From an uncultured virus (IMG/VR IMGVR_UViG_3300044633_000491) (lineage: Duplodnaviria; Heunggongvirae; Uroviricota; Caudoviricetes), in IMG/VR virus record IMGVR_UViG_3300044633_000491, positions 1 through 64,000 of that record: 64,000 bases of DNA, one strand, 5' to 3'. The notes under the pieces were generated by a model, which ran no database searches, was not told the DNA's origin, and saw only the letters and a program-made list of their open reading frames with translations. Position numbers and translations under genes: made by a program. Position 1 is the stretch's first letter. Every line of letters begins with the position of its first letter. This document shows positions 165 through 14,965 of the stretch, piece by piece.

Positions 165-1112
165 TTAGTCGTTTGTTGCTAGTTTTACTGTTGTGTTTAC
201 AACTGCTGAACCTGTTGAAGTCCATCTTGCGTGGCTATTTGCAGCAAATTGTGTACCTGCTGTGTATCCATCAATATCTGCCGGGAATAACAATGCTGTA
301 CGTGATTCAAGTTTACCGACTACATAACTACCGTTGTCAGAATCAAACGCTGTTAGTGTCATTTCGCCTGCGGCTGTTGGGCCACCTGCAGCAACAACTT
401 GCGCTACTGTTGGGCTGTTAACACCGTTAACACCTGTTGGAACTAAACGAACTACATCAGTACCATCAGCATTAGTTACGCGATAACGACGTGAACTGCG
501 TTGACTAACGATATCAGCTTGTTTACCAATTGTGCCACCGGTAATCCGTGCGTTAGCACGGATTGTGTTAGCTGTAACTGTTGAAGCTGCTAATACTGCT
601 GTTAATGAACCTGCAGATCCAATATCACCAAAGCTAATTAATGTTGTACTTGTTGCGCTGGTATTAGCGGCACTCATTGTAACATTACCTGTGCCGATAG
701 CTGTGATTGTAGTAGTTGCTGCAAATGCTGTATTTGCGGCCATACCGACAAATAAACCTACAGTAGTTGAAACTGTTAGTACATTTGAACCACTAATTGC
801 TCCGCCTGTGACTACTACGTTAGCCGGTTTAACTAAGGTAATTACCGGTGCAGTTGTGTAACCAGTACCTGCTGTTGTAACACTAGCTGTATCGATACGA
901 CCGTTAGCTGTACTAACTGCATCGACTGTCACTCTGGCAACTGTGCCACCGATTGGGCTAAGTGCCACTGTAGCTGTTAAACCTTGTGAGTAGTTTGTAC
1001 CACGGTTTGTGTAAGTAATACTCGAAATACCTTCACCACCTGCAGCACTGTATGTTAAACCATCATTAACATTATCTGAACCAAAAAACTTTTTCTTAAT
1101 AGGACGTCCCAT
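165..1112 (-). CDS. Putative virion structural/decoration protein (Gly/Thr/Ala/Val-rich)
   Basis: Likely start is ATG 1112 (MGRPIKKKFFG) with AAGGAG SD; follows the MCP gene; beta-rich composition with a GTGYTTAP-type motif. Confidence 0.6.
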   Translation of the reverse strand: MGRPIKKKFFGSDNVNDGLTYSAAGGEGISSITYTNRGTNYSQGLTATVALSPIGGTVARVTVDAVSTANGRIDTASVTTAGTGYTTAPVITLVKPANVVVTGGAISGSNVLTVSTTVGLFVGMAANTAFAATTTITAIGTGNVTMSAANTSATSTTLISFGDIGSAGSLTAVLAASTVTANTIRANARITGGTIGKQADIVSQRSSRRYRVTNADGTDVVRLVPTGVNGVNSPTVAQVVAAGGPTAAGEMTLTAFDSDNGSYVVGKLESRTALLFPADIDGYTAGTQFAANSHARWTSTGSAVVNTTVKLATND

Positions 1113-1194
1113 TTGTTTTCTCCTTATATATTTAATTGTTCTACAATCTACGCGGTTGGGACCGCATAAACTCTCATTCAAGAGCGAACTCTAG
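1106..1194 (-). promoter_or_regulatory. Structured late 5' leader (three-way junction, loop complementary to start-codon region)
   Basis: Stems GTTC/GAAC, GCTCTT/GAGAGT and TTATGCGGT/ACCGCGTAG; GTCCCA is complementary to (A)TGGGAC at the start codon. Confidence 0.55.
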
Positions 1195-7228: not shown

Positions 7229-10063
7229 TTAGTAGCTGTTTTGTAATAATCCTGATGCGTACTTGTTATTTTGTTGCATTGCTGACAAAATACTATTTAA
7301 TATATCAGATTGTGCTCGAAGTGCACCAGTTATTGCACTGCCTTCTAAGTTTACAGGAATTGACTTGTTATCCGGTAATGGCACTACTGCTTCAGTTCCG
7401 TGCAAGGTTGCAGAATACCCGCTTAATGACCCGCTGGCAATACCACCTTTGGCAAAGCCTGTAGCATAGTCAGACATTTTTGCACCAGCACTAGACTCTG
7501 TCAGGCCAGTAACATAGTCTGACATTTTTGTACTACCGCCAGACTCCAGGCCAGTAACATAGTCTGACATTTTTGTACTACCGCCAGTCTCTTTTATTGA
7601 TGCATCAAGTTTAGAACCGCCTTCACCTATTAGATCTTTGGCTTTGTCTAACTCACTTTGTATTTCTTGTTTTAGTTTTGGCCAACCGCGTGCAAAATCT
7701 AATATCTCTCGTGCGGTGTTTTGATCAACAACTTCACCGCCAAGAGTCCAAGATCCGTTATCTTTATCTCCTACCCACTTAAGTGCAGCGGCTGCTTCTA
7801 AGAAATAACCGGCGATTGACCCTTTACCTTCAGAAGTTATCGCTTGCATACTATTCATTGCTTGGCTAGTTAGTTGACCTACTGATAAATTTCCTAATTT
7901 ACCTAAGATTTCTTTAGATTCTTTAGCATCAGAAGTTATCGCTTGCATACTATTCATTGCTTGGCTAGTTAGTTGACCTCCTGATAAATTTCCTAATTTA
8001 CCTAAGATTTCTTTAGATTCTTTAGCACTAGTAACTTCTGCAGGACCTTTAACAATTTCTGGTCCAGCTTCACCTACTATACCTGTTTCGCCGGCTGGAA
8101 TAGTACCTCCTTCAGCGTACAAGGCAGGTCCCGAATCATTAATCATCTGTTGGTATTTTTCATCAGATGATTTCATTCCTTCAGTACGTTTTTTCTCGTC
8201 TTTAGCCGCTTCTTGTTTATATTTTTTAGGATCAGATTTTTTAAGTTGTTCTAATTCTTCTTGGCGTCTTTTCTTTTCGTCAAGCACTCGCTCAGCAGCT
8301 TCGTCTATAGCTTTGTTGCCGCTCTGACCAAATGTTTTGTCAATGATTGATTGTAAGCCTTCGAGCATTGCCTTACTAACATCAGCAAATTTCTTAATAG
8401 GTACATCCATCATTTCTTGCATTTTAATTTTTAATTGTTGTGCCGCTTGTTCTGCAGCCATTAGACTTTCTTGGTATCCGCCTGCAGCCCCCGCTGCTTT
8501 ATCTCCTTGAGCAATTGATTTTTTAAGATTTTCGCTGTTAAGTTTTAGACTTTGTTGTCCTTGACTATCAAATGCCGCTGCAAGATCTGCGTTTTTACCA
8601 GTAGCAATGGCAGCCATACTCACTGCACGCCCTACTTCATCTGTAGCTTTTAAATATCTATCACCTTGTTGTGCAAACCCGCCAACCATATCTACTACTT
8701 GTGCGCCACCACTATTTAATGAATCAGCAAATACTCTACCACCATCTGCGGCACCTGTTAAGTTAGCGCCTACATCTGTAACTGCACCTCCTAGCACTGT
8801 AGCTTGTATGGCGGCTCTACGTTGAGTTTCGTCCATTAGCGCAAGACTAGCTTTTACCCGACTAGGTAGTCCAGGATCGTTAGTTTTACGAGCAATTTCG
8901 TTTACTTTAGAAAAGAATGCATATTGCTCAGCTTGTTTTTTTGCTTGATCCATTCGCTGTTTAGCATCTTCACCTGTAATGTTTGCTACAATACGCATGT
9001 TTTTAGCTAGATCAAGAGTAGCTTCTGCTACTGCTTTATTAGTAGTTGTACCGCCTGTACCTGTTCTACGCAAATCACTGATAATTTGTGCAGAAAGTTC
9101 TGCTTGTTCTTGAAATCCAAATCCTAAGTTTTGCATTTCTCTTTGTAAGGTTTGTCCACTGCGGCCAGTAGTTCTTGCAAACTGACTAGTAACATTGGCC
9201 ATCATCTTAGCACCATCGCTAACTGTATAGCCTGCTTCTGCTAATAAAGGTGCTGTATTTTTTACTGCACCAGAGAATTGCTCCACAGTCAGTCCTGCCA
9301 TACTACTGTAGCGGCGCATGTCATTCATACCATTAGCAAACATTGCGCCTGCACTGTTCATTTCATGGAAAGATTTTACTGTTTTTTCTACTTCTTTTTG
9401 TAGTATTTCAACTCCAAACTTAGCCAGTTTGTTCATTGAATCGGCACTCTTATCTAAGACGATACCGAATATCTCTAAGGCAGCAGCCGCAACCATACCG
9501 GCTGGACCAAATCTCATCAGCATAGGTGCAGCGGCTTGTAATCCCTGGCCTAAGGCTTTGGTTCCTGCTGTTGCTACATCAATACCAGCAGTCATTAGTC
9601 CCGAGGCTAAGTCTACACCAGTAGCATTACTTTGTAACCCTTTAACAAAGTCACCAGCACCTTTTACTGCCGCAGATGCCATGCCCGAGGCAGCTTTTGT
9701 TGTGGCTTCTTGCATTCCTTTCATGCTAGCTGACGTTTGTAGTGCGTCGCGTTGTGCTAACAATGCTGCTTTTGTTTGTTCTGCGGCTAATTTTTTAGTA
9801 GCGTCTTGCTCATCTTCCATTGAATCGGTTAGATCCTCAATAGCAGAGTCAAGTTTGTTCAGCATGTCTACTTGATCTTTGTAGCCTTTAGCTCCCTTGG
9901 CTACTTCTTTGTTAAGTTTACCAAGCTCTTTTTGGAAATCAGCAGAATTTTTTTGAATATTTTTGACAAAAGACGATAGAGTTTTGTCGCTTATTCCAAA
10001 CTTTTCTTGAAGTTGATCTAGAGCTTGCTGTAAGCCTTCAATATCTATTTCTTGATCTGCCAT
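7229..10063 (-). CDS. Tape-measure-like tail protein
   Basis: 944-aa Ala/Gly/Gln-rich helical protein with AEGG...VGEAGPE and FAKGG...LHGTEAVVPL motifs typical of TMP C-termini; divergent from the gp26-like gene. Confidence 0.7.
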   Translation of the reverse strand: MADQEIDIEGLQQALDQLQEKFGISDKTLSSFVKNIQKNSADFQKELGKLNKEVAKGAKGYKDQVDMLNKLDSAIEDLTDSMEDEQDATKKLAAEQTKAALLAQRDALQTSASMKGMQEATTKAASGMASAAVKGAGDFVKGLQSNATGVDLASGLMTAGIDVATAGTKALGQGLQAAAPMLMRFGPAGMVAAAALEIFGIVLDKSADSMNKLAKFGVEILQKEVEKTVKSFHEMNSAGAMFANGMNDMRRYSSMAGLTVEQFSGAVKNTAPLLAEAGYTVSDGAKMMANVTSQFARTTGRSGQTLQREMQNLGFGFQEQAELSAQIISDLRRTGTGGTTTNKAVAEATLDLAKNMRIVANITGEDAKQRMDQAKKQAEQYAFFSKVNEIARKTNDPGLPSRVKASLALMDETQRRAAIQATVLGGAVTDVGANLTGAADGGRVFADSLNSGGAQVVDMVGGFAQQGDRYLKATDEVGRAVSMAAIATGKNADLAAAFDSQGQQSLKLNSENLKKSIAQGDKAAGAAGGYQESLMAAEQAAQQLKIKMQEMMDVPIKKFADVSKAMLEGLQSIIDKTFGQSGNKAIDEAAERVLDEKKRRQEELEQLKKSDPKKYKQEAAKDEKKRTEGMKSSDEKYQQMINDSGPALYAEGGTIPAGETGIVGEAGPEIVKGPAEVTSAKESKEILGKLGNLSGGQLTSQAMNSMQAITSDAKESKEILGKLGNLSVGQLTSQAMNSMQAITSEGKGSIAGYFLEAAAALKWVGDKDNGSWTLGGEVVDQNTAREILDFARGWPKLKQEIQSELDKAKDLIGEGGSKLDASIKETGGSTKMSDYVTGLESGGSTKMSDYVTGLTESSAGAKMSDYATGFAKGGIASGSLSGYSATLHGTEAVVPLPDNKSIPVNLEGSAITGALRAQSDILNSILSAMQQNNKYASGLLQNSY
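7456..7591 (-). repeat. 45-bp in-frame tandem repeat (ESGGSTKMSDYVTGL), 2 near-exact copies plus 1 degenerate copy
   Basis: CAGGCCAGTAACATAGTCTGACATTTTTGTACTACCGCCAG occurs at 7502 and 7547. Confidence 0.9.
7830..8027 (-). repeat. 99-bp in-frame tandem duplication (33 aa)
   Basis: Units start at 7830 and 7929 and are near-identical (AKESKEILGKLGNLS[G/V]GQLTSQAMNSMQAITS). Confidence 0.92.
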
Positions 10064-10086: not shown

Positions 10087-10121
10087 CATAAATAATATTA
10101 TGGTACTATCAATTATTTATA
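10087..10121. promoter_or_regulatory. Face-to-face pair of late promoters serving divergent genes
   Basis: CATAAATA on + (10087-10094) and TATAAATA on - (10114-10121) in the gap between the TMP-like and gp26-like genes. Confidence 0.7.
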
Positions 10122-10996: not shown

Positions 10997-11022
10997 CACT
11001 AGAGAACAACGCAGTTCTAGCT

Positions 11023-11211
11023 ATGATACAGGGCTATGAACGTGATGTAAGAGCCTTAAAAGATGATGCGTTACGAATGAGTTGGTATATGCGTGGTGGT
11101 TTAAGCTACGACGATGCTATGATGTTAAGCGTAACTGAACGCGAACTGATAGGTAAGATAATCAAAGATAATATGGAAACTACACAGAAATCAAGGCTGC
11201 CTTTTTTTTAG
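11023..11211 (+). CDS. gp51-like small baseplate/tail assembly protein, possibly made as a -1 frameshift fusion to the upstream ORF
   Basis: WYMRGGLSYDDAMMLSVTERELI motif; frame open from 10966; no obvious SD before ATG 11023. Confidence 0.65.
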   Translation: MIQGYERDVRALKDDALRMSWYMRGGLSYDDAMMLSVTERELIGKIIKDNMETTQKSRLPFF

Positions 11212-11235
11212 ACGTAGTTGTTCTTAAAGTAAGTT

Positions 11236-11262
11236 AAAGGCTATATTCGTATAGTCTTTTTT
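11236..11262 (+). terminator. Intrinsic terminator
   Basis: AAAGGCTATA-TTCG-TATAGTCTTTTTT after the gp51-like ORF. Confidence 0.8.
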
Positions 11263-11379
11263 ATTGACTAGTGTTTAAGATGTCTTAACGACATCTGCAT
11301 TTATCGCTTGCGCTCAAATGCTTTTTCTTCTAATCTAATTAATCTAATTTACTTTGAACTACTGTATGTTCTTCTAATG

Positions 11380-11758
11380 CTTTATCCAGATGTAGGTCAT
11401 ACTTCACCTATCCGCTAGGCAAAGTATAAGAGACTCTTTATCCGAGTGCTACTATCATACTAACTAAAAGAGATTGTATTCAATTACACGGAGGCGGTCA
11501 GCCGGTACCCCCTACTCTTGCTTCATCTGGCGGATGCTAATATAGCCGTAGTTAGCCAACTATATTAGTCACGTGGGTTGTATCTTTTTCACAGTGCCCA
11601 CATCATTTGGTTTTTACACCTAATTTTATATTGTTTGATCGCTTTTTACAGCACAATACGGTTCTTGCCATCAAGTGTGTAGTCTAGTCTACACGTTCCA
11701 TTCGGGGCCATTACGCGACCGAAATCTCCTCTTGATACAGCGCATGCTGCAGCAGTGG
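11380..11758 (-). ncRNA. Candidate large structured non-coding RNA, family unassigned
   Basis: No ORF of 60 aa or more. At least 10 complementary stems, several closing only through G-U pairs on the - strand, plus two loop-to-distal pairings (pseudoknots). Confidence 0.7.
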
Positions 11759-12193
11759 CTATTTTGTAATCTTTAAGTCTTTTACGGAATTTTTACCAAG
11801 TTTAAGTTGAATAATGCCATTGTAGTTGTTTTCACGCAACAATACATCTTCCTTAAATTGATAATAGGCTTCCAAGTAATTAGTTTCGCCTCGGGAGTTG
11901 CACAGATGTACAATTTCACGAGTAAATTTCTCTTTGCCTAGTGCGCTAATGTCTTCCATTAAACGCTGTGATGAGCCCCAATATGTTTTCCAGTCTGTTT
12001 CTATGACTTCGTGTCTTTTGTTTTTCTTGCCTTTTAGAGGTGGTCTCTTTTTGATAGTAATGAAGTATTTGCGGCCAATGTAATCATGACCATTTACTGT
12101 GTTGGTAATTCTATATATAAAGCCATAATAAGTTTGAATATCCTCGGAGTTAAATATTGTGCCATTATAAGTCCAAGGATAATCGTATACCAT
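11759..12193 (-). CDS. Stand-alone GIY-YIG family nuclease domain protein
   Basis: GFIYRITNTVNGHDYIGRK, DWKTYWGSS, conserved E (YLEA) and YN; only 144 aa with no evident C-terminal DNA-binding repeats; AATAAATA 5 nt upstream. Confidence 0.85.
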   Translation of the reverse strand: MVYDYPWTYNGTIFNSEDIQTYYGFIYRITNTVNGHDYIGRKYFITIKKRPPLKGKKNKRHEVIETDWKTYWGSSQRLMEDISALGKEKFTREIVHLCNSRGETNYLEAYYQFKEDVLLRENNYNGIIQLKLGKNSVKDLKITK

Positions 12194-12201
12194 ACTGCTA
12201 T

Positions 12202-12387
12202 TTATTTCGCAGACATTGCATTTTTCTTCTCTTGGATTTCTGCTCTTCTTGCTTTGGCTAATTTAGCTAAATCACCTAATGCACCACGAGCACGTGCCGC
12301 TGCTGCTTTAACGCCTTTGTCTTCAAACTTTGCGCTTTCTTCTGTGTAAACAGCTACCGCTGCTAAAATATCTTCATGAATTGACAT
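12202..12387 (-). CDS. Small basic Hc1/histone-H1-like nucleoid protein
   Basis: KGVKAAAARARGALGDLAKLAKARRAEIQ resembles Hc1-family peptides; AAGGAG SD and GTTAAATA (12410-12417) upstream. Confidence 0.65.
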   Translation of the reverse strand: MSIHEDILAAVAVYTEESAKFEDKGVKAAAARARGALGDLAKLAKARRAEIQEKKNAMSAK

Positions 12388-12432
12388 TATATGTCTCCTT
12401 GTTGTTGTGTATTTAACCGCCTATAGTGGTGG

Positions 12433-13113
12433 TTAAATTATTTTCTTACAGTTGATACCATGCCACCTTGCATAATTTCCAATTGATACTGTTTTATCAC
12501 AATATGGGCATGTTTTTGGAGGTAGTTTATTAATTCTGTCAGCTACCTCCGGTTTACCCCACGATGGATTCTTTTCTTTCTTAAAACCAACGTTTGGGTT
12601 TCCTTTGAGAGCCTTGCTTAAATTTTTATTATGTTCGGCCGGCCTATTTTTATTATATTCTTTTAACTTAATGCTTTTCTTTTGTCTAGTTTCTATAGAA
12701 TCAGTATGTCCGAACAATGGAGATAATTCTCCTCTTTTTCCGTAAGATGGATTTTTATCTCCTTGCCTTGCTAAACTTTTCTTTTGTTTAGTCGCTTCAG
12801 AATCCTTACTTCCAAGTCGATTCCCTGCATCAAAACAAGCATTGCTTCTATTATAGCTCAATGGATGATTTTTAGCATCTAACAGTATTAGGTACTTTGT
12901 TTCTAATTCTCTAATATACTTGGCTTCTCCTATAGCTAAAATTTCATAGCACCACTCATTACGATTTTCTAAAATAAGAGGTTTAACAATAAGACTTGAG
13001 CAAATATATTTTTCATGACGGTTAGGATTCCATCCTTTTTGTGTTTTAGATCCAACATACCACATTCCTGTGGGGAGGTGAGTCCATCTATATAGATAAG
13101 GTATTGTATTCAT
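12433..13113 (-). CDS. Seg-like GIY-YIG homing endonuclease with NUMOD3-type repeats
   Basis: PYLYRWTHLPTGMWYVGSK; HTDSIETRQKKS and KNPSYGK repeats; C-terminal CPYC..RWH..C; start reassigned to ATG 13113 (GGAG SD). Confidence 0.8.
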   Translation of the reverse strand: MNTIPYLYRWTHLPTGMWYVGSKTQKGWNPNRHEKYICSSLIVKPLILENRNEWCYEILAIGEAKYIRELETKYLILLDAKNHPLSYNRSNACFDAGNRLGSKDSEATKQKKSLARQGDKNPSYGKRGELSPLFGHTDSIETRQKKSIKLKEYNKNRPAEHNKNLSKALKGNPNVGFKKEKNPSWGKPEVADRINKLPPKTCPYCDKTVSIGNYARWHGINCKKII

Positions 13114-13117
13114 AAGA

Positions 13118-13197
13118 TACTCCAGTAAAGTAATAAGGGCTATCTGTGTTACTGGCACAGAAGGATGATCAAGTCCGTTCGCCCATTAATATTTATG
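13118..13197 (-). promoter_or_regulatory. Late promoter plus structured leader with a pseudoknot onto the Shine-Dalgarno
   Basis: CATAAATA (13190-13197); stems GGGC/GCCC, GGA/TCC and TCTGTG/CACAGA; loop CCAGTAA is complementary to TTACTGG overlapping GGAG. Confidence 0.6.
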
Positions 13198-14965
13198 CAA
13201 TATCTACATCAGTCGAATATGACGTGAAACCATTCTCCTTAACTACACGCATTACATTGTCAACTCGACCTGCTAATTCATCTTTATGACTTATGAGCCA
13301 AACTGACTTACTACTTTCTCTAGTCATTTTCTTAAGCATAGCAAGAGCATTTTCAGTACCACTAGAATCAAACCCGTTGTCTATTAATTCATCGATGAAT
13401 ACTAAGTTAATTGGTTGATATAATGATTCATATACATCTCTAAAAGCAAAACTTAGACTCAATATTACTCTGGTCATCTCACCGCGGCTAAGATTGTAGA
13501 AGTCTAACTCTCTGCCTAATTCTTGTATTTCTACACTTAGATCATTTAAAAATTTAACACTGTGTGGTAAGCCAATTTTATCTAAGTAATAGCCTAATCG
13601 AGCATTTAAGTAGCTTAAGTTTTGATCAATAATACGTTTACGTATAAACGAATCTTTGTTTGTTAATAGTTTTAATAAAAACTCTTGATGTTCCTTGACA
13701 CGCATTAGTTCATTCATTACGGCGTAATCAATTTCAGCTAAGGCTGTAGTCTTCATCTCTTCAATTTGTTCATCGTAAGGGTCAGTTTCAGCAACTTTGC
13801 CCGCTAGCTGTGTTTGTAAGCTAGCTACTGTGCTACGATGATGGATAGCATCTTCTTCCTTATCGTAGAACACATTAGGTTGTTGACCCAACTCGCCTAG
13901 CTCTTTTCTAGTTGCTTGGAATAATTGTAGTTGACCGAACAACTCAATGTACTGTTGGTGTGCTTCTGCTAAGATAGCTTTTTTACCTGCTAGTACTTCT
14001 TCATGTTTATTATCGTGGAATGTTTGCCCACAAGCATAACAAGTATGCGCTTCCAAATCACTAATTTCTTTTTCTGTCTTGTCTACGAGCTTTTGTTCTC
14101 TGACACAATCTGCGTCAGCACGTAAGATAGCTTTATCTAAGTCACCCAAATCTTTACGCTTTTGATTATATGCTGTAAGGTCTTTGTGTGCTTGTATTTC
14201 ACTATCGATATCGATCTTTAATAGTTCATCTAAGGCAGTTTGCAGTTTTGTTACGTCTTCTGCATGTTTGGTAGTCCACATAGTTTGTCGACGCTTTAGG
14301 CTCTCAATTTGCTCTTGAATACGGCCATTTGCGTCAGTAATCGCCTTAATATTGAACTCTTCTTGTTGAATTGCATCCTTAGTAGCCTTACTCTGTTCTT
14401 TTAGTAGATCAGCTTTTTCACTAAGCAAGGTAATACCAAGCAACTGCTCAATAATAGTACGTTGTTCATTTGCCTTAAGGCTTAGGAACGGTTCTGTATA
14501 GGTATTAAGTGCTACAATATGCTTGAACATATCGTGGCTCATACCTAGCAAGCGTTCAATTTCCTGCTGTGTTTCGCGGCTGTCACCTTGGCTGTTATCG
14601 TCTTTGCTTTCCTGTTCTTGATCACCGATATAAAACTTTAGTACATTGTGTTTACGGCCACGCTCGATACGATAGCTTTCACCTTGTACTTCAAAATCAA
14701 TAGTAACCAGCATACCTTTGGCATTGGTCTTGTTAATTAAATTATCTTTACGAATATTAGTAAGTGCTGTACCGTACAGAGCGTAGCTTAGTGCATTAAT
14801 GATGGTAGTTTTGCCTGTACCATTACGTGCTCCGCTGTCGTCTCCACCTAAGTCAATGTTCTCACCTAAGACTAAGGTCAAGTCTCTACGGTCAAACTCA
14901 ACTGCTTGAGTAGCATTACCTACACTCATAAAGTTGCGTACGGTTAAATTCTTAATTCTAAACAT
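13193..14965 (-). CDS. gp46: Recombination ATPase subunit (T4 gp46, Rad50/SbcC-like)
   Basis: NFMSVGN, Walker A NGTGKTT, coiled coil with CYAC zinc hook, LSRGE signature, Walker B FIDE, SH loop. Confidence 0.95.
   Translation of the reverse strand: MFRIKNLTVRNFMSVGNATQAVEFDRRDLTLVLGENIDLGGDDSGARNGTGKTTIINALSYALYGTALTNIRKDNLINKTNAKGMLVTIDFEVQGESYRIERGRKHNVLKFYIGDQEQESKDDNSQGDSRETQQEIERLLGMSHDMFKHIVALNTYTEPFLSLKANEQRTIIEQLLGITLLSEKADLLKEQSKATKDAIQQEEFNIKAITDANGRIQEQIESLKRRQTMWTTKHAEDVTKLQTALDELLKIDIDSEIQAHKDLTAYNQKRKDLGDLDKAILRADADCVREQKLVDKTEKEISDLEAHTCYACGQTFHDNKHEEVLAGKKAILAEAHQQYIELFGQLQLFQATRKELGELGQQPNVFYDKEEDAIHHRSTVASLQTQLAGKVAETDPYDEQIEEMKTTALAEIDYAVMNELMRVKEHQEFLLKLLTNKDSFIRKRIIDQNLSYLNARLGYYLDKIGLPHSVKFLNDLSVEIQELGRELDFYNLSRGEMTRVILSLSFAFRDVYESLYQPINLVFIDELIDNGFDSSGTENALAMLKKMTRESSKSVWLISHKDELAGRVDNVMRVVKENGFTSYSTDVDIA

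What the first reader, a model, noticed from the sequence alone, without database searches (positions are those of the whole stretch)
11380..12206. Large pseudoknotted RNA directly downstream of a minimal GIY-YIG nuclease gene: candidate RNA-protein system
Seen: the ~380 nt after the GIY-YIG stop (TAG at 11759) have no ORF but fold extensively on the - strand. Stems in + coordinates: 11670-75/11731-36, enclosing hairpins 11701-23 and 11677-94; twin hairpins with identical GUAAAA loops (11641-52, 11609-20); 11573-601; a 12-bp stem at 11537-68; 11490-512; a 12-bp stem at 11399-427; and long-range CCAGAUG/CAUCUGG (11524-30/11386-92). Two loops have distal partners: GCUAACUA (11549-56) with UAGUUAGU (11459-66), and GCGGAU (11410-15) with AUCCGC (11530-35). 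Several stems close only through G-U pairs on the - strand, which points to selection on RNA rather than DNA. No terminator separates it from the gene, which has its own late promoter. The protein is a bare 144-aa catalytic domain, unlike the neighbouring Seg-like enzyme with NUMOD repeats. Knowledge: nuclease-plus-RNA pairs (IscB/HEARO) and large phage RNAs (GOLLD, ROOL) exist, but I cannot assign this RNA to any family. Inference: the RNA may guide or scaffold the nuclease, or act as an R-loop replication primer.
Basis: partly seen in the sequence, partly recalled or inferred. Interest (0 to 1): 0.88.

Follow-up and report, generated by a model that had tools for sequence, protein, structure and literature searches.

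The report
New large structured jumbo-phage RNA
A previously undescribed folded RNA gene of about 480 bases is conserved in a group of giant lake-water phages, usually but not always beside a small nuclease gene, and it carries two short identical segments that always change together, which hints at a built-in recognition code.

Summary
The RNA is real. The ORF-free stretch after the GIY-YIG gene is part of a roughly 482-nt element (window 11279-11760, minus strand).

It recurs in at least 161 IMG/VR loci (130 unique sequences) and is single-copy in the four phage records searched. Compensatory base changes support most helices and one pseudoknot (GCUAACUA/UAGUUAGU). The second proposed pseudoknot is not conserved. 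G-U versus A-C counts fix the minus strand. No Rfam family matches and there is no coding signal.

The nuclease link is frequent but not obligate:
- In 66 loci fetched by the RNA motif alone, 48 have the GIY-YIG gene adjacent, 9 have it one gene away, and 9 have none within the ≤2 kb fetched.
- Two of the GIY-less loci place a consensus sigma-70 promoter directly before the RNA.
- Homologous domain-only GIY-YIG genes occur in 767 phage records; four inspected lack the RNA.

A new finding: two 7-nt segments about 55 nt apart are identical in 116 of 117 sequences, although the 7-mer changed at least 39 times. No complementary partner was found.

I favour, at about 30%, a ColE1-RNA-II-like R-loop pre-primer. 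Function remains untested.

The parts
11279..11760 (-). Whole conserved structured RNA element, about 482 nt. RNA position p corresponds to window coordinate 11761-p.
   Evidence: blastn to relatives covers query positions 1-549 with the conserved part about 1-482. Covariation. No ORF. No coding signal.
11664..11760 (-). 5' domain. An outer helix (GCC/GGC plus AUCAAG/CUUGAU) encloses two hairpins. It starts at the stop codon of the GIY-YIG gene.
   Evidence: Alignment A3 of 39 clade-1 sequences: 23 predicted pairs, 16 with both-sides changes.
11624..11660 (-).
   Evidence: Present in the window and 6 of the 46 other sequences of the 47-sequence alignment; absent as a gap in the rest.
11378..11625 (-). 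Conserved core, 237-259 nt in most of the 121 unique sequences. It is the basis of covariance model R1.
   Evidence: Alignment A1 of 117 sequences. 76.3% of cells paired against 66.0 +/- 0.3 in shuffles, 957 double-change cells against 395 +/- 17, slid controls 38-48%. R1 scores the window at 224.6 bits, E = 2.4e-51.
11549..11556 (-). Pseudoknot strand 1: the loop GCUAACUA of the 12-bp hairpin.
   Evidence: Pairs with 11459-11466. 94.5% of cells paired and 8 of 8 pairs covary.
11459..11466 (-). Pseudoknot strand 2: UAGUUAGU.
   Evidence: As for strand 1. The two clades carry entirely different but mutually complementary sequences.
11437..11443 (-). Repeat copy 1 of the co-varying 7-mer (GGAUAAA in the window), preceded by the invariant ACUC. 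It sits in a local hairpin loop.
   Evidence: Identical to copy 2 in 116 of 117 sequences. Enclosed by a stem in the local MFE in 116 of 117.
11381..11387 (-). Repeat copy 2 of the 7-mer (GGAUAAA), preceded by AUCU, which is the 3' strand of the long-range helix. It is followed by the A-rich linker.
   Evidence: The two copies lie 49-64 nt apart.
11398..11428 (-). 12-bp hairpin lying between the two 7-mer copies.
   Evidence: 88.9% of cells paired; 7 of 12 pairs show both-sides changes.
11326..11380 (-). A-rich linker of variable length and sequence.
   Evidence: Across 125 sequences: 46% A, 65% purine, 64% A+T; the core has 29% A.
11279..11325 (-). 3' domain: a helix enclosing a small GCAA-type hairpin, then the terminal hairpin AGAUGUC/GACAUCU.
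   Evidence: Alignment A4 of 42 sequences. The terminal hairpin is 93.4% paired and 7 of 7 pairs show both-sides changes. Overall 87.0% paired against 63.7 +/- 1.5 in shuffles.
11759..12193 (-). Domain-only GIY-YIG nuclease gene (144 aa). It is the usual but not obligate upstream neighbour.
   Evidence: Pfam SegE_GIY-YIG, 8.2e-38. phrog_447. The motif tyrosines, Arg92, Glu108 and Asn125 are invariant in 13 diverse homologues. Model pLDDT 86; best fold match is the I-TevI catalytic domain.
11239..11262 (+). Terminator-like hairpin plus T-run ending the convergent plus-strand operon. It is not part of the RNA.
   Evidence: Read from the sequence. The stem has a G-U on the plus strand but an A-C mismatch on the minus strand. 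The scan does not list it because it has fewer than 3 G-C pairs.

Best explanation
What it is (near certain): a new family of single-copy, structured non-coding RNA genes, about 415-480 nt. It belongs to a clade of lake-water jumbo phages distantly related to Pseudomonas phage PA5oct and is transcribed in the same direction as the upstream GIY-YIG gene. It is a gene in its own right, not an appendage of the nuclease.

How it most likely works (inferred, about 30%): it acts in cis as a folded pre-primer, or R-loop-forming origin transcript, in the manner of ColE1 RNA II.
1. The conserved core folds co-transcriptionally, and the long-range helix closes it.
2. This presents 7-mer copy 1 in a hairpin loop next to the site where copy 2 is being transcribed.
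3. Copy 1 has the same sequence as copy 2, so it is complementary to the template DNA strand at copy 2. It can anneal there behind the polymerase.
4. That anchors the transcript and nucleates a persistent RNA-DNA hybrid over the A-rich linker. A nuclease could then process the hybrid into a primer, or the hybrid could open the duplex.

In this model the partner of copy 1 is the DNA under copy 2. That explains why the two RNA segments co-vary in parallel and why no third, complementary segment exists. Fast turnover of the 7-mer would then act as a specificity (incompatibility-like) code among co-infecting relatives.

Shown: the RNA family, its structure, its strand, its single copy, the parallel covariation and the promoters. 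Inferred: R-loop formation, priming, and any role of the neighbouring nucleases.
For: Family and structure:
- 74 of 80 loci fetched through the GIY-YIG protein have the homologous RNA region. The 6 misses all run off the contig.
- 161 loci hold the full region, giving 130 unique sequences.
- Covariation is shown. The strand is fixed by 399 G-U against 26 A-C pairs.
- There is one copy in each of the 4 records searched, including a complete 346,856-bp genome.

Autonomy:
- A 12/12 (L094) and an 11/12 (L128) sigma-70 consensus promoter lie about 96-97 nt before the core, in loci without a GIY-YIG gene.

Parallel covariation:
- The 7-mers are identical in 116 of 117 sequences.
- At the three main variable positions the paired states across 130 sequences are 76 A/A + 54 G/G; 68 G/G + 60 A/A + 2 C/C; and 91 U/U + 38 A/A + 1 mixed.
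- At least 39 changes occur on the tree. L154 and L180 are 98.2% identical elsewhere yet differ at both copies.

No complementary partner:
- Own-7-mer complements in cis: 1 of 125 against 1.1 in controls (7-nt), 13 against 14.7 (6-nt), 74 against 76.8 (5-nt).

Geometry:
- Copy 1 sits in a hairpin loop in 116 of 117 sequences.
- Copy 2 is single-stranded directly after the closing helix and is followed by an A-rich, AT-rich variable linker.

Context:
- The locus lies beside the gp46/47-type recombination nuclease genes.
- The upstream slot holds a nuclease gene, either GIY-YIG or, in L085, L111, L112 and L157, a PD-(D/E)XK-like protein.

Precedent:
- In ColE1 an rG stretch of the transcript must pair with a dC stretch of the template strand to form the persistent hybrid, and early T4 replication uses R-loops. 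These are passages of the review PMC4412123.
- That the ColE1 rG stretch lies in an upstream loop is recalled, not read.
Against: - There is no direct evidence of an R-loop, a primer or an origin here.
- The cumulative GC skew of the complete relative G006 shows no origin-like turning point at the locus, only the change of gene orientation.
- The linker is A-rich rather than G-rich, so its RNA-DNA hybrid would be weak.
- The 3' domain beyond the linker is conserved with covariation. That argues that a full-length stable RNA matters and fits a trans-acting RNA better.
- About 30 invariant core nucleotides suggest a conserved protein or catalytic partner that the model does not need.
- The strict absence of G/A mixed states is not fully explained, because an rG-dT wobble should be tolerable.
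- Transcription itself is not demonstrated. Metatranscriptome contigs over the region are thin and could be DNA.
- A consensus sigma-70 promoter is seen in only 2 of 121 sequences.
Confidence: 0.3

Rival explanations
1. A stable trans-acting RNA, of the ornate kind like ROOL or GOLLD, or a sponge/decoy. Its two identical single-stranded 7-mers bind two copies of one external partner: a phage or host RNA, a DNA site, or a dimeric factor. The 7-mer would diversify in an arms race or with the partner.
For: - The 3' domain and its terminal hairpin are conserved, which suggests a protected full-length RNA.
- The core sequence is strongly conserved.
- The RNA has its own strong promoter in two lineages.
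- Both 7-mers are exposed.
- The 7-mer turns over fast: at least 39 changes.
Against: - No partner was found. In G007, 16 sites carry the 7-mer or its complement; 7 aligned to another genome. Only the RNA's own two sites show the matching 7-mer in the other genomes (at the second site in G000 only; the G008 alignment has a gap); the other 5 do not.
- The 7-mer is not enriched in the window: 6 and 6 occurrences against 7.3 and 6.0 expected.
- RNA-RNA pairing tolerates G-U, so mixed G/A states between the copies would be expected. None is seen in 130 sequences.
- A protein partner does not explain identity at freely varying positions.
Confidence: 0.25
2. One reading: the RNA guides or scaffolds the adjacent domain-only GIY-YIG nuclease as an RNA-protein system.
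For: - Adjacency holds over a wide range of protein divergence. The gene is directly upstream in 88 of 115 unique loci, at 36-100% identity.
- In the sample fetched by the RNA motif alone it is adjacent in 48 of 66.
- The RNA starts at the stop codon.
- The protein has no DNA-binding domain and its catalytic residues are invariant.
- The complete genome G006 has exactly one such gene, and it lies beside the RNA.
Against: - 9 of 66 loci have no GIY-YIG within the ≤2 kb fetched, and 9 of 66 have another gene inserted between.
- No PF19835 match was found in five GIY-less contigs, though these are only 5-26% complete.
- The family occurs in 767 isolate-phage records.
- In four inspected records the next gene follows within 29-149 nt and model R1 finds nothing.
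- No variable guide-like segment lies at either end of the RNA.
- No RNA-guided GIY-YIG turned up among the 35 titles and abstracts listed by two literature searches.
Confidence: 0.08
3. The two 7-mers are a DNA-level feature: core sites of a site-specific recombination or excision event, iteron-like protein-binding repeats, or repeats kept identical by templated conversion across the intervening hairpin. This feature would be superimposed on an RNA gene.
For: - Strict identity without wobble tolerance is what DNA strand exchange requires.
- The repeats flank a perfect hairpin.
Against: - The complete relative G006 encodes no tyrosine recombinase, serine recombinase or reverse transcriptase.
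- None of the 130 unique sequences lacks the intervening segment.
- DNA-run contigs cross the segment without a joint.
- The flanks of the 7-mers are not inverted repeats, as recombinase sites would be.
Confidence: 0.08
4. A cis-acting 3' untranslated region that stabilises the upstream operon's mRNA or controls its translation.
For: - The RNA abuts the stop codon, with no terminator between.
- It keeps this position after whatever gene lies upstream.
Against: - Its size, its pseudoknot and its sequence conservation far exceed known stabilisers.
- It keeps its structure behind unrelated upstream genes, and behind its own promoter where no gene is co-transcribed.
Confidence: 0.05

Closest known systems
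ColE1 RNA II pre-primer (persistent hybrid at the plasmid origin)
   Same: - A folded transcript several hundred nucleotides long.
- A segment of the transcript must pair with the template DNA strand further downstream. The RNA therefore contains the same short sequence twice.
- Specificity loops can drift quickly.
- Basis: passages of PMC4412123, plus recall for the position of the rG stretch.
   Different: - No sequence or Rfam similarity.
- The paired element is a variable 7-mer, not a G-run.
- No antisense RNA-I-like regulator was seen.
- It is a phage, not a plasmid.
- Hybrid formation and priming are untested here.
Phage T4 oriF/oriG R-loop origins
   Same: - T4-type phage biology.
- A transcript from an early or middle promoter forms an R-loop that primes replication (PMC4412123 passage).
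- The locus lies beside replication and recombination genes.
   Different: As far as I recall, the T4 origins need only a promoter and an unwinding element, not a large conserved folded RNA. No homology was tested or found.
GOLLD and ROOL large ornate phage-associated RNAs
   Same: - Large, highly structured, pseudoknotted RNAs found in phage or prophage DNA and in lake or rumen metagenomes.
- Their function is unknown. This is from the abstract of bioRxiv 10.1101/2024.12.08.627333, seen in the listing.
   Different: - No match to any Rfam family at E <= 10.
- No tRNA genes in the 64-kb window.
- No self-complementary loops pointing to homo-oligomers were identified.
- The paired identical 7-mers have no counterpart that I know of.
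IscB/TnpB omega-RNAs (HEARO) and other nuclease-plus-guide-RNA pairs
   Same: A structured RNA is encoded directly beside a small nuclease gene in a mobile-element-rich setting.
   Different: - The nuclease is GIY-YIG, not RuvC/HNH.
- There is no terminal variable guide.
- The RNA occurs without the nuclease, and the nuclease without the RNA.
Free-standing GIY-YIG endonucleases next to RNA genes (T4 SegB in the tRNA cluster; recalled)
   Same: - A GIY-YIG gene sits beside conserved RNA genes in a variable region that also collects other endonuclease genes.
- Here these are a NUMOD3-bearing GIY-YIG gene in the window and 232-237-aa proteins with a GIY-YIG-like motif (by eye, not scanned) inserted in L015, L030 and L051.
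   Different: - This GIY-YIG lacks any DNA-binding domain.
- It is single-copy in the complete relative G006 and in three partial records and adjacent to the RNA in most loci.
- It belongs to a family (phrog_447) found in 767 isolate-phage records, so it behaves like a resident gene rather than a recent invader.

Membership tests
Any Rfam 15 family (including GOLLD, ROOL, HEARO, group I/II introns, RNase P, tmRNA, 6S) | Covariance-model match at or near the family's gathering score | tested here: not met
   At gathering thresholds the only hit in the window is freshwater-2 at 1110-1185. At E <= 10 over 11000-12500 there are three noise hits of 13-21 bits (mir-9 twice, HOXB13-AS1). ARAGORN finds no tRNA or tmRNA.
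Group I intron carrying a GIY-YIG homing endonuclease | The intron RNA flanks the endonuclease ORF and interrupts a host gene, leaving exons on both sides | tested here: not met
   The GIY-YIG ORF starts 8 nt after the stop of an upstream 61-aa gene. The RNA is followed by a convergent operon. No split gene is present, and there is no Intron_gpI hit.
Omega-RNA / guide-RNA nuclease systems | Obligate co-occurrence of the RNA and its nuclease | tested here: not met
   9 of 66 RNA loci have no GIY-YIG within the ≤2 kb fetched. Four isolate phages carry the nuclease without the RNA.
Omega-RNA / guide-RNA nuclease systems | A hypervariable guide segment at one end of a conserved scaffold | tested here: not met
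   The only fast-evolving defined elements are the two internal identical 7-mers. The ends of the RNA are conserved helices.
ColE1-RNA-II-type pre-primer (works-like comparison only) | An upstream transcript segment able to pair with the template DNA strand at a downstream site | tested here: met
   Copy 1 equals copy 2 in 116 of 117 sequences, so it is complementary to the template strand at copy 2. Copy 1 lies in a hairpin loop in 116 of 117.
ColE1-RNA-II-type pre-primer (works-like comparison only) | A persistent RNA-DNA hybrid, nuclease processing, and DNA synthesis starting at the site | not testable with these tools
   This needs wet-lab R-loop and origin mapping. The GC skew of G006 is uninformative.
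ColE1-RNA-II-type pre-primer (works-like comparison only) | A dedicated promoter driving the transcript | tested here: inconclusive
   A consensus sigma-70 promoter (11-12 of 12 matches) is found in 2 of 121 sequences. The rest score 9 or fewer and are probably co-transcribed or use phage-specific promoters.
GIY-YIG nuclease superfamily (the protein) | The GIY and YIG motifs plus catalytic Arg, Glu and Asn on the GIY-YIG fold | tested here: met
   Pfam PF19835, 8.2e-38. Y27, Y38, G40, R92, E108 and N125 are invariant. Fold match to the I-TevI catalytic domain: probability 0.99, TM-score 0.67 normalised to the target.
Typical Seg/I-TevI-type homing endonuclease (the protein) | A C-terminal DNA-binding module (NUMOD, zinc finger or helix-turn-helix) tethered to the catalytic domain | tested here: not met
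   The Pfam domain covers residues 7-124 of 144 and no second domain is found. Residues 138-144 of the model are disordered.
T4 endonuclease II (DenA) orthologue (the protein) | Detectable sequence or fold similarity to DenA | tested here: not met
   A profile search of PDB sequences returned no GIY-YIG nuclease chain at E <= 1. Foldseek's top hits are I-TevI, not endonuclease II. That a solved DenA structure exists is recalled.

The most novel reading that the evidence does not exclude
The paired 7-mers are a programmable recognition code in a new RNA-based mechanism. One version is a phage replication origin fired by a large folded pre-primer RNA whose loop reads its own template DNA, with the 7-mer acting as a rapidly diversifying self-specificity (incompatibility) determinant among co-infecting phages. 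The other is a dual-site guide that recognises an as yet unseen nucleic-acid target, possibly handing it to the neighbouring nuclease.
Probability: 0.3. Interest if true: 0.9.

Novelty: new variant of a known kind. Interest (0 to 1): 0.75.

Why it matters
Large structured RNAs without a known function are rare, and each new class has opened new biology. This class has at least 130 distinct natural sequences, strong covariation and a verified pseudoknot, so it is ready for structure determination and for building a family model.

The two 7-nt segments stay identical through at least 39 changes and have no complementary partner. I know of no described RNA family with this pattern. It narrows the mechanism to a few testable ideas: pairing to the RNA's own template DNA, a dual-site external target, or DNA-level exchange.

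If the R-loop pre-primer reading holds, it would give a defined origin element for uncultured jumbo phages and a natural example of a programmable RNA-DNA recognition step outside CRISPR-like systems.

It also corrects a tempting over-reading. The adjacent minimal GIY-YIG nuclease belongs to a widespread phage family that mostly stands without this RNA.

Tried and rejected
- **Known RNA families.** Rfam at gathering and at E <= 10, and ARAGORN, found nothing in the region.
- **Similarity to isolate phages.** blastn of 989 bases against 50,697 phage records gave no match. Model R1 on the whole PA5oct genome gave only 12.2 bits, E = 0.47, taken as noise.
- **Protein-coding reading.** The longest stop-free stretch in the core has a median of 50 codons. 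Column entropy is flat by phase (0.81, 0.81, 0.84). 811 of 886 indel runs are not multiples of three.
- **A cis partner for the 7-mers.** Exact reverse complements within +/-2 kb fall at no consistent place. A wobble-tolerant scan found only a local AUCU/AGAU palindrome and near-control signals. Mutual information with other columns is at most 0.45 bits, against 0.88-1.10 for the repeat itself. An alignment-free comparison of own against other sequences' complements showed no enrichment.
- **A trans partner.** Of 16 sites in G007, 9 did not align to the other genomes. None of the 5 aligned non-RNA sites had the matching 7-mer. This is inconclusive because the genomes overlap little.
- **7-mer enrichment in the window.** None.
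- **Genome ends.** The 134-nt terminal repeat of G006 holds no copy of the 7-mer.
- **Enzymes for copying or recombination models.** G006 has no reverse transcriptase, tyrosine recombinase or serine recombinase.
- **GC skew of G006.** No origin-like extreme at the locus.
- **Translational bypass (gene-60-like) and mini-ORF readings.** The frames upstream of copy 1 are not conserved, read.
- **Antiparallel self-pairing of the 7-mers.** Positions 1 and 7 do not covary as a pair; all 8 combinations of the three biallelic positions occur.
- **Expression.** Contigs of two metatranscriptome runs cover parts of the RNA (11459-11700) and of the GIY-YIG gene at depth 2-5. The tool warns that DNA may be present and that contigs show neither strand nor ends. 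One joint (11700 to 11767, one contig, side 26) looks like a relative with a shorter 5' region. No joint links the two 7-mers. I draw no conclusion on transcription.
- **DenA orthology of the nuclease.** Not supported.
- **Earlier notes of this scan.** None found by place, words or sequence.
- **Literature.** Three searches found no description of this RNA or of an RNA-guided GIY-YIG: GIY-YIG with structured or noncoding RNA; large structured RNA, jumbo phage, GOLLD, ROOL; and GIY-YIG with RNA-guided. I read only titles and abstracts in the listings.
- **Not done.** I did not scan the metagenome-contig collection, and I did not use complex prediction, which does not take RNA.
Full report
**Setting.** The window is part of a 75,868-base IMG/VR virus contig estimated at 19% complete. 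Its gp46-type recombination nuclease subunit is 50% identical to that of the jumbo Pseudomonas phage PA5oct. The minus strand carries four genes in a row: the gp46-like gene (13193-14965), a GIY-YIG gene with a NUMOD3 motif (12433-13158), a 61-aa Hc1-like gene (12202-12387) and a 144-aa domain-only GIY-YIG gene (11759-12193). After these, no minus-strand ORF of 30 aa or more follows until the convergent plus-strand baseplate-hub gene and a 62-aa gene end at 11211.

On the plus strand they reach only -92.2 (z = -0.48; 25 of 100). Rfam 15 reports nothing credible: only freshwater-2 elsewhere in the window at gathering thresholds, and three 13-21-bit noise hits at E <= 10. ARAGORN finds no tRNA or tmRNA.

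**Relatives.**
- A search of IMG/VR with the GIY-YIG protein found 276 relatives and kept 80 loci.
- blastn of the 549 bases after the stop codon hit 74 of these 80 at about 70-100% identity.
- The six misses all run off their contig. Five end within about 100 bases. L046 carries an inserted 265-aa gene and ends 85 bases later.
- In all, 161 loci held the full 550-base region, giving 130 unique sequences.
- The same pattern hit three contigs in two MAGs labelled Haliscomenobacter and Flavobacterium. These have the phage gene context and are probably co-binned phage contigs.
- Sequencing runs that hold the stretch are mostly lake-water metagenomes: 20 of 24 listed runs, from 17 studies.

**Extent.** Conservation starts at the stop codon (window 11760). 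The element is therefore about 482 nt in the window and about 415 nt in the second clade.

**Structure.** I aligned 117 of the 121 unique core sequences. Four with long insertions (L121, L130, L137, L146) were left out to stay within the model's column limit.
- It shows 957 double-change cells against 395 +/- 17 in shuffles.
- Well supported: the GUGGG/CCCAC helix (88% paired; its inner two pairs 100%), the AGAG/CUCU helix (100%, one covarying pair), the GGGGG/CCUCC hairpin (90-100%) and the 12-bp hairpin at 11398-11428 (88.9%).
- The pseudoknot between the loop at 11549-56 and 11459-66 is 94.5% paired and all eight pairs covary. RNAalifold chose this pairing on its own.
- The 5' domain has 16 of 23 pairs with compensatory changes in 39 clade-1 sequences.
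- The terminal 3' hairpin is 93.4% paired and all seven pairs covary in 42 sequences.
- Not supported family-wide: the second pseudoknot (31% paired).
- Only partly supported: the long-range CCAGAUG/CAUCUGG helix (59-90%).
- The 12-bp stem at 11537-68 scores 52% because MAFFT misaligns the two clades there.
- G-U pairs outnumber A-C by 399 to 26 among 3,802 cells, so the RNA is read from the minus strand.
- There is no coding signal.

**Copy number and reach.** A covariance model of the core (R1) finds one copy in each of four virus records, including a complete 346,856-base genome, G006. It finds nothing credible in PA5oct.

**Link to the nuclease.**
- In 115 unique loci with at least 1.5 kb upstream, a GIY-YIG homologue (36-100% identical, mostly 142-152 aa) is the immediate upstream gene in 88. 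Many of those loci were fetched through the protein, which biases this count.
- In the 66 unique loci fetched by the RNA pattern alone, 48 have the gene adjacent, 9 have it about 1.0-1.2 kb further with one gene inserted, and 9 have none within the ≤2 kb fetched.
- The inserted or replacing genes vary. Pfam-checked: a PD-(D/E)XK endonuclease (L085), a Mtd_N-bearing protein (L094) and a nucleoside-phosphorylase-like protein (L128). Judged by eye or by similarity to those: GDSL/SGNH-like proteins, 232-237-aa proteins with a GIY-YIG-like motif, PD-(D/E)XK-like proteins in L111, L112 and L157, and a MazG-like protein in L087 (no Pfam hit).
- L094 and L128 place a 12/12 and an 11/12 sigma-70 consensus promoter about 96-97 bases before the core on the RNA strand. 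The other 119 sequences score 9 or fewer.
- Conversely, tblastn finds the protein family in 767 isolate-phage records at under 60% identity.
- In Melnitz-3, P-RSM4, phiN3 and Synechococcus phage B23 the next annotated gene starts 149, 52, 29 and 112 bases downstream. Model R1 finds nothing in these 21,524 bases.
- The protein keeps all catalytic residues, models with pLDDT 86, and best resembles the I-TevI catalytic domain. It belongs to phrog_447, which is labelled 'NAD synthetase', evidently a mislabel.
- The RNA is therefore an autonomous gene that usually shares a conserved neighbourhood with a resident nuclease gene. An obligate RNA-nuclease system is not supported.

**A new feature: two 7-mers that change together.**
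- Two segments preceded by ACUC and AUCU (window 11437-43 and 11381-87) carry the same 7-mer in 116 of 117 core sequences. The one exception differs by a single-A indel.
- The 7-mer itself takes 14 forms.
- At its three main variable positions the two copies agree in 130 of 130, 130 of 130 and 129 of 130 sequences. All eight combinations of these three positions occur.
- On a tree built with the repeats masked, at least 39 changes of the 7-mer are needed. L154 and L180, 98.2% identical elsewhere, differ at both copies.
- The copies lie 49-64 bases apart and flank the 12-bp hairpin.
- Copy 1 sits in a hairpin loop closed by variable, compensating stems in 116 of 117 sequences. Copy 2 follows the long-range helix and precedes the A-rich linker.
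- No complementary partner exists in cis. None was found among alignable sites of three related genomes. The 7-mer is not enriched in the window.
- G006 encodes no reverse transcriptase and no tyrosine or serine recombinase.

**Interpretation.** Identity of two RNA segments, as opposed to complementarity, is expected when the complement of one must pair with the other. The simplest case needs no third partner: the loop copy pairs with the template DNA strand under the downstream copy. ColE1 replication works in this way. There an rG stretch of RNA II must pair with a dC stretch of the template to make the persistent hybrid that RNase H turns into a primer, and early T4 replication also starts from R-loops (passages of PMC4412123). 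That the ColE1 stretch is an upstream loop is recalled, not read.

I therefore favour a folded pre-primer or R-loop origin transcript, at about 30%. Points in favour:
- the geometry of the two copies;
- the strong early-type promoters in two lineages;
- the single copy per genome;
- the replication and recombination neighbourhood;
- the nuclease gene that usually sits upstream.

Points against:
- the conserved 3' domain, which suggests a stable full-length RNA;
- the A-rich linker, which would make a weak hybrid;
- the uninformative GC skew;
- the absence of any direct evidence, including firm evidence of transcription.

A trans-acting RNA with two identical recognition sites is nearly as likely, at about 25%. 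The nuclease-guide reading, a DNA-level repeat function and a 3'-UTR role are less likely. The remainder is unexplained.

**Novelty.** No Rfam family matches. Neither the three literature searches nor earlier notes of this scan describe it. It joins the small set of large structured phage RNAs of unknown function as a new family, and to my knowledge the parallel-covarying repeat pair is an unusual feature for such RNAs.

Noticed in passing
window 1110-1185 (-): A freshwater-2 RNA motif (Rfam RF02980) scores 57.8 bits against a gathering score of 49.9. It is the only Rfam hit in the window.
   Followed up: no
window 12202-12387 (-); also L046 2307-2492 and L121 269-466: A 61-65-aa gene matches the chlamydial histone-H1-like Hc1 family (Pfam PF07432, 1.3e-10 for the window copy). 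It sits just upstream of the GIY-YIG gene in several relatives. A histone-like protein in a jumbo phage may be worth a look.
   Followed up: no
window 7229-10063 (-): The 944-aa protein holds internal tandem duplications: a block of about 33 aa (AKESKEILGKLGNLS.GQLTSQAMNSMQAITS) occurs twice and GGSTKMSDYVTGL recurs. An exact TATAAATA lies at 10114-10121 on its strand, about 50 bases before its start codon.
   Followed up: no
L087 and L157, about 100-170 bases before the RNA core: Three to four direct repeats of a roughly 10-base unit (CACACTTAGG-like) sit directly upstream of the RNA in two loci without a GIY-YIG gene. They may be a phage-specific promoter or a protein-binding array.
   Followed up: no
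L203, L204 and L205 (contigs of two MAGs labelled Haliscomenobacter and Flavobacterium): Contigs of 148 kb, 183 kb and 6 kb carry the RNA and phage genes, so they are probably jumbo-phage contigs binned with bacterial genomes. This is a weak host hint at best. The two large contigs in one MAG carry different versions of the RNA.
   Followed up: partly
L246 (Prochlorococcus phage P-RSM4) 2465-3145, and other cyanophage records: The homologous domain-only GIY-YIG gene is widely annotated as 'NAD synthetase' (phrog_447 carries the same label), which looks like a propagated mislabel. In P-RSM4 a tRNA-Arg gene follows it by about 150 bases.
   Followed up: partly
L094 2311-3201 (-): In one GIY-less locus the gene upstream of the RNA's promoter has a Mtd_N (major tropism determinant N-terminal) domain at 5.1e-14, probably a tail-fibre gene. 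This shows that the RNA also occurs in a quite different gene context.
   Followed up: no
L015, L030 and L051 (between the GIY-YIG gene and the RNA); window 12433-13158: The space around the RNA collects further endonuclease-type genes. In the window this is a Pfam-checked NUMOD3-bearing GIY-YIG gene. In L015, L030 and L051 it is 232-237-aa proteins with a GIY-YIG-like motif, judged by eye and not scanned. This behaves like a homing-endonuclease hot spot beside a conserved RNA gene.
   Followed up: partly
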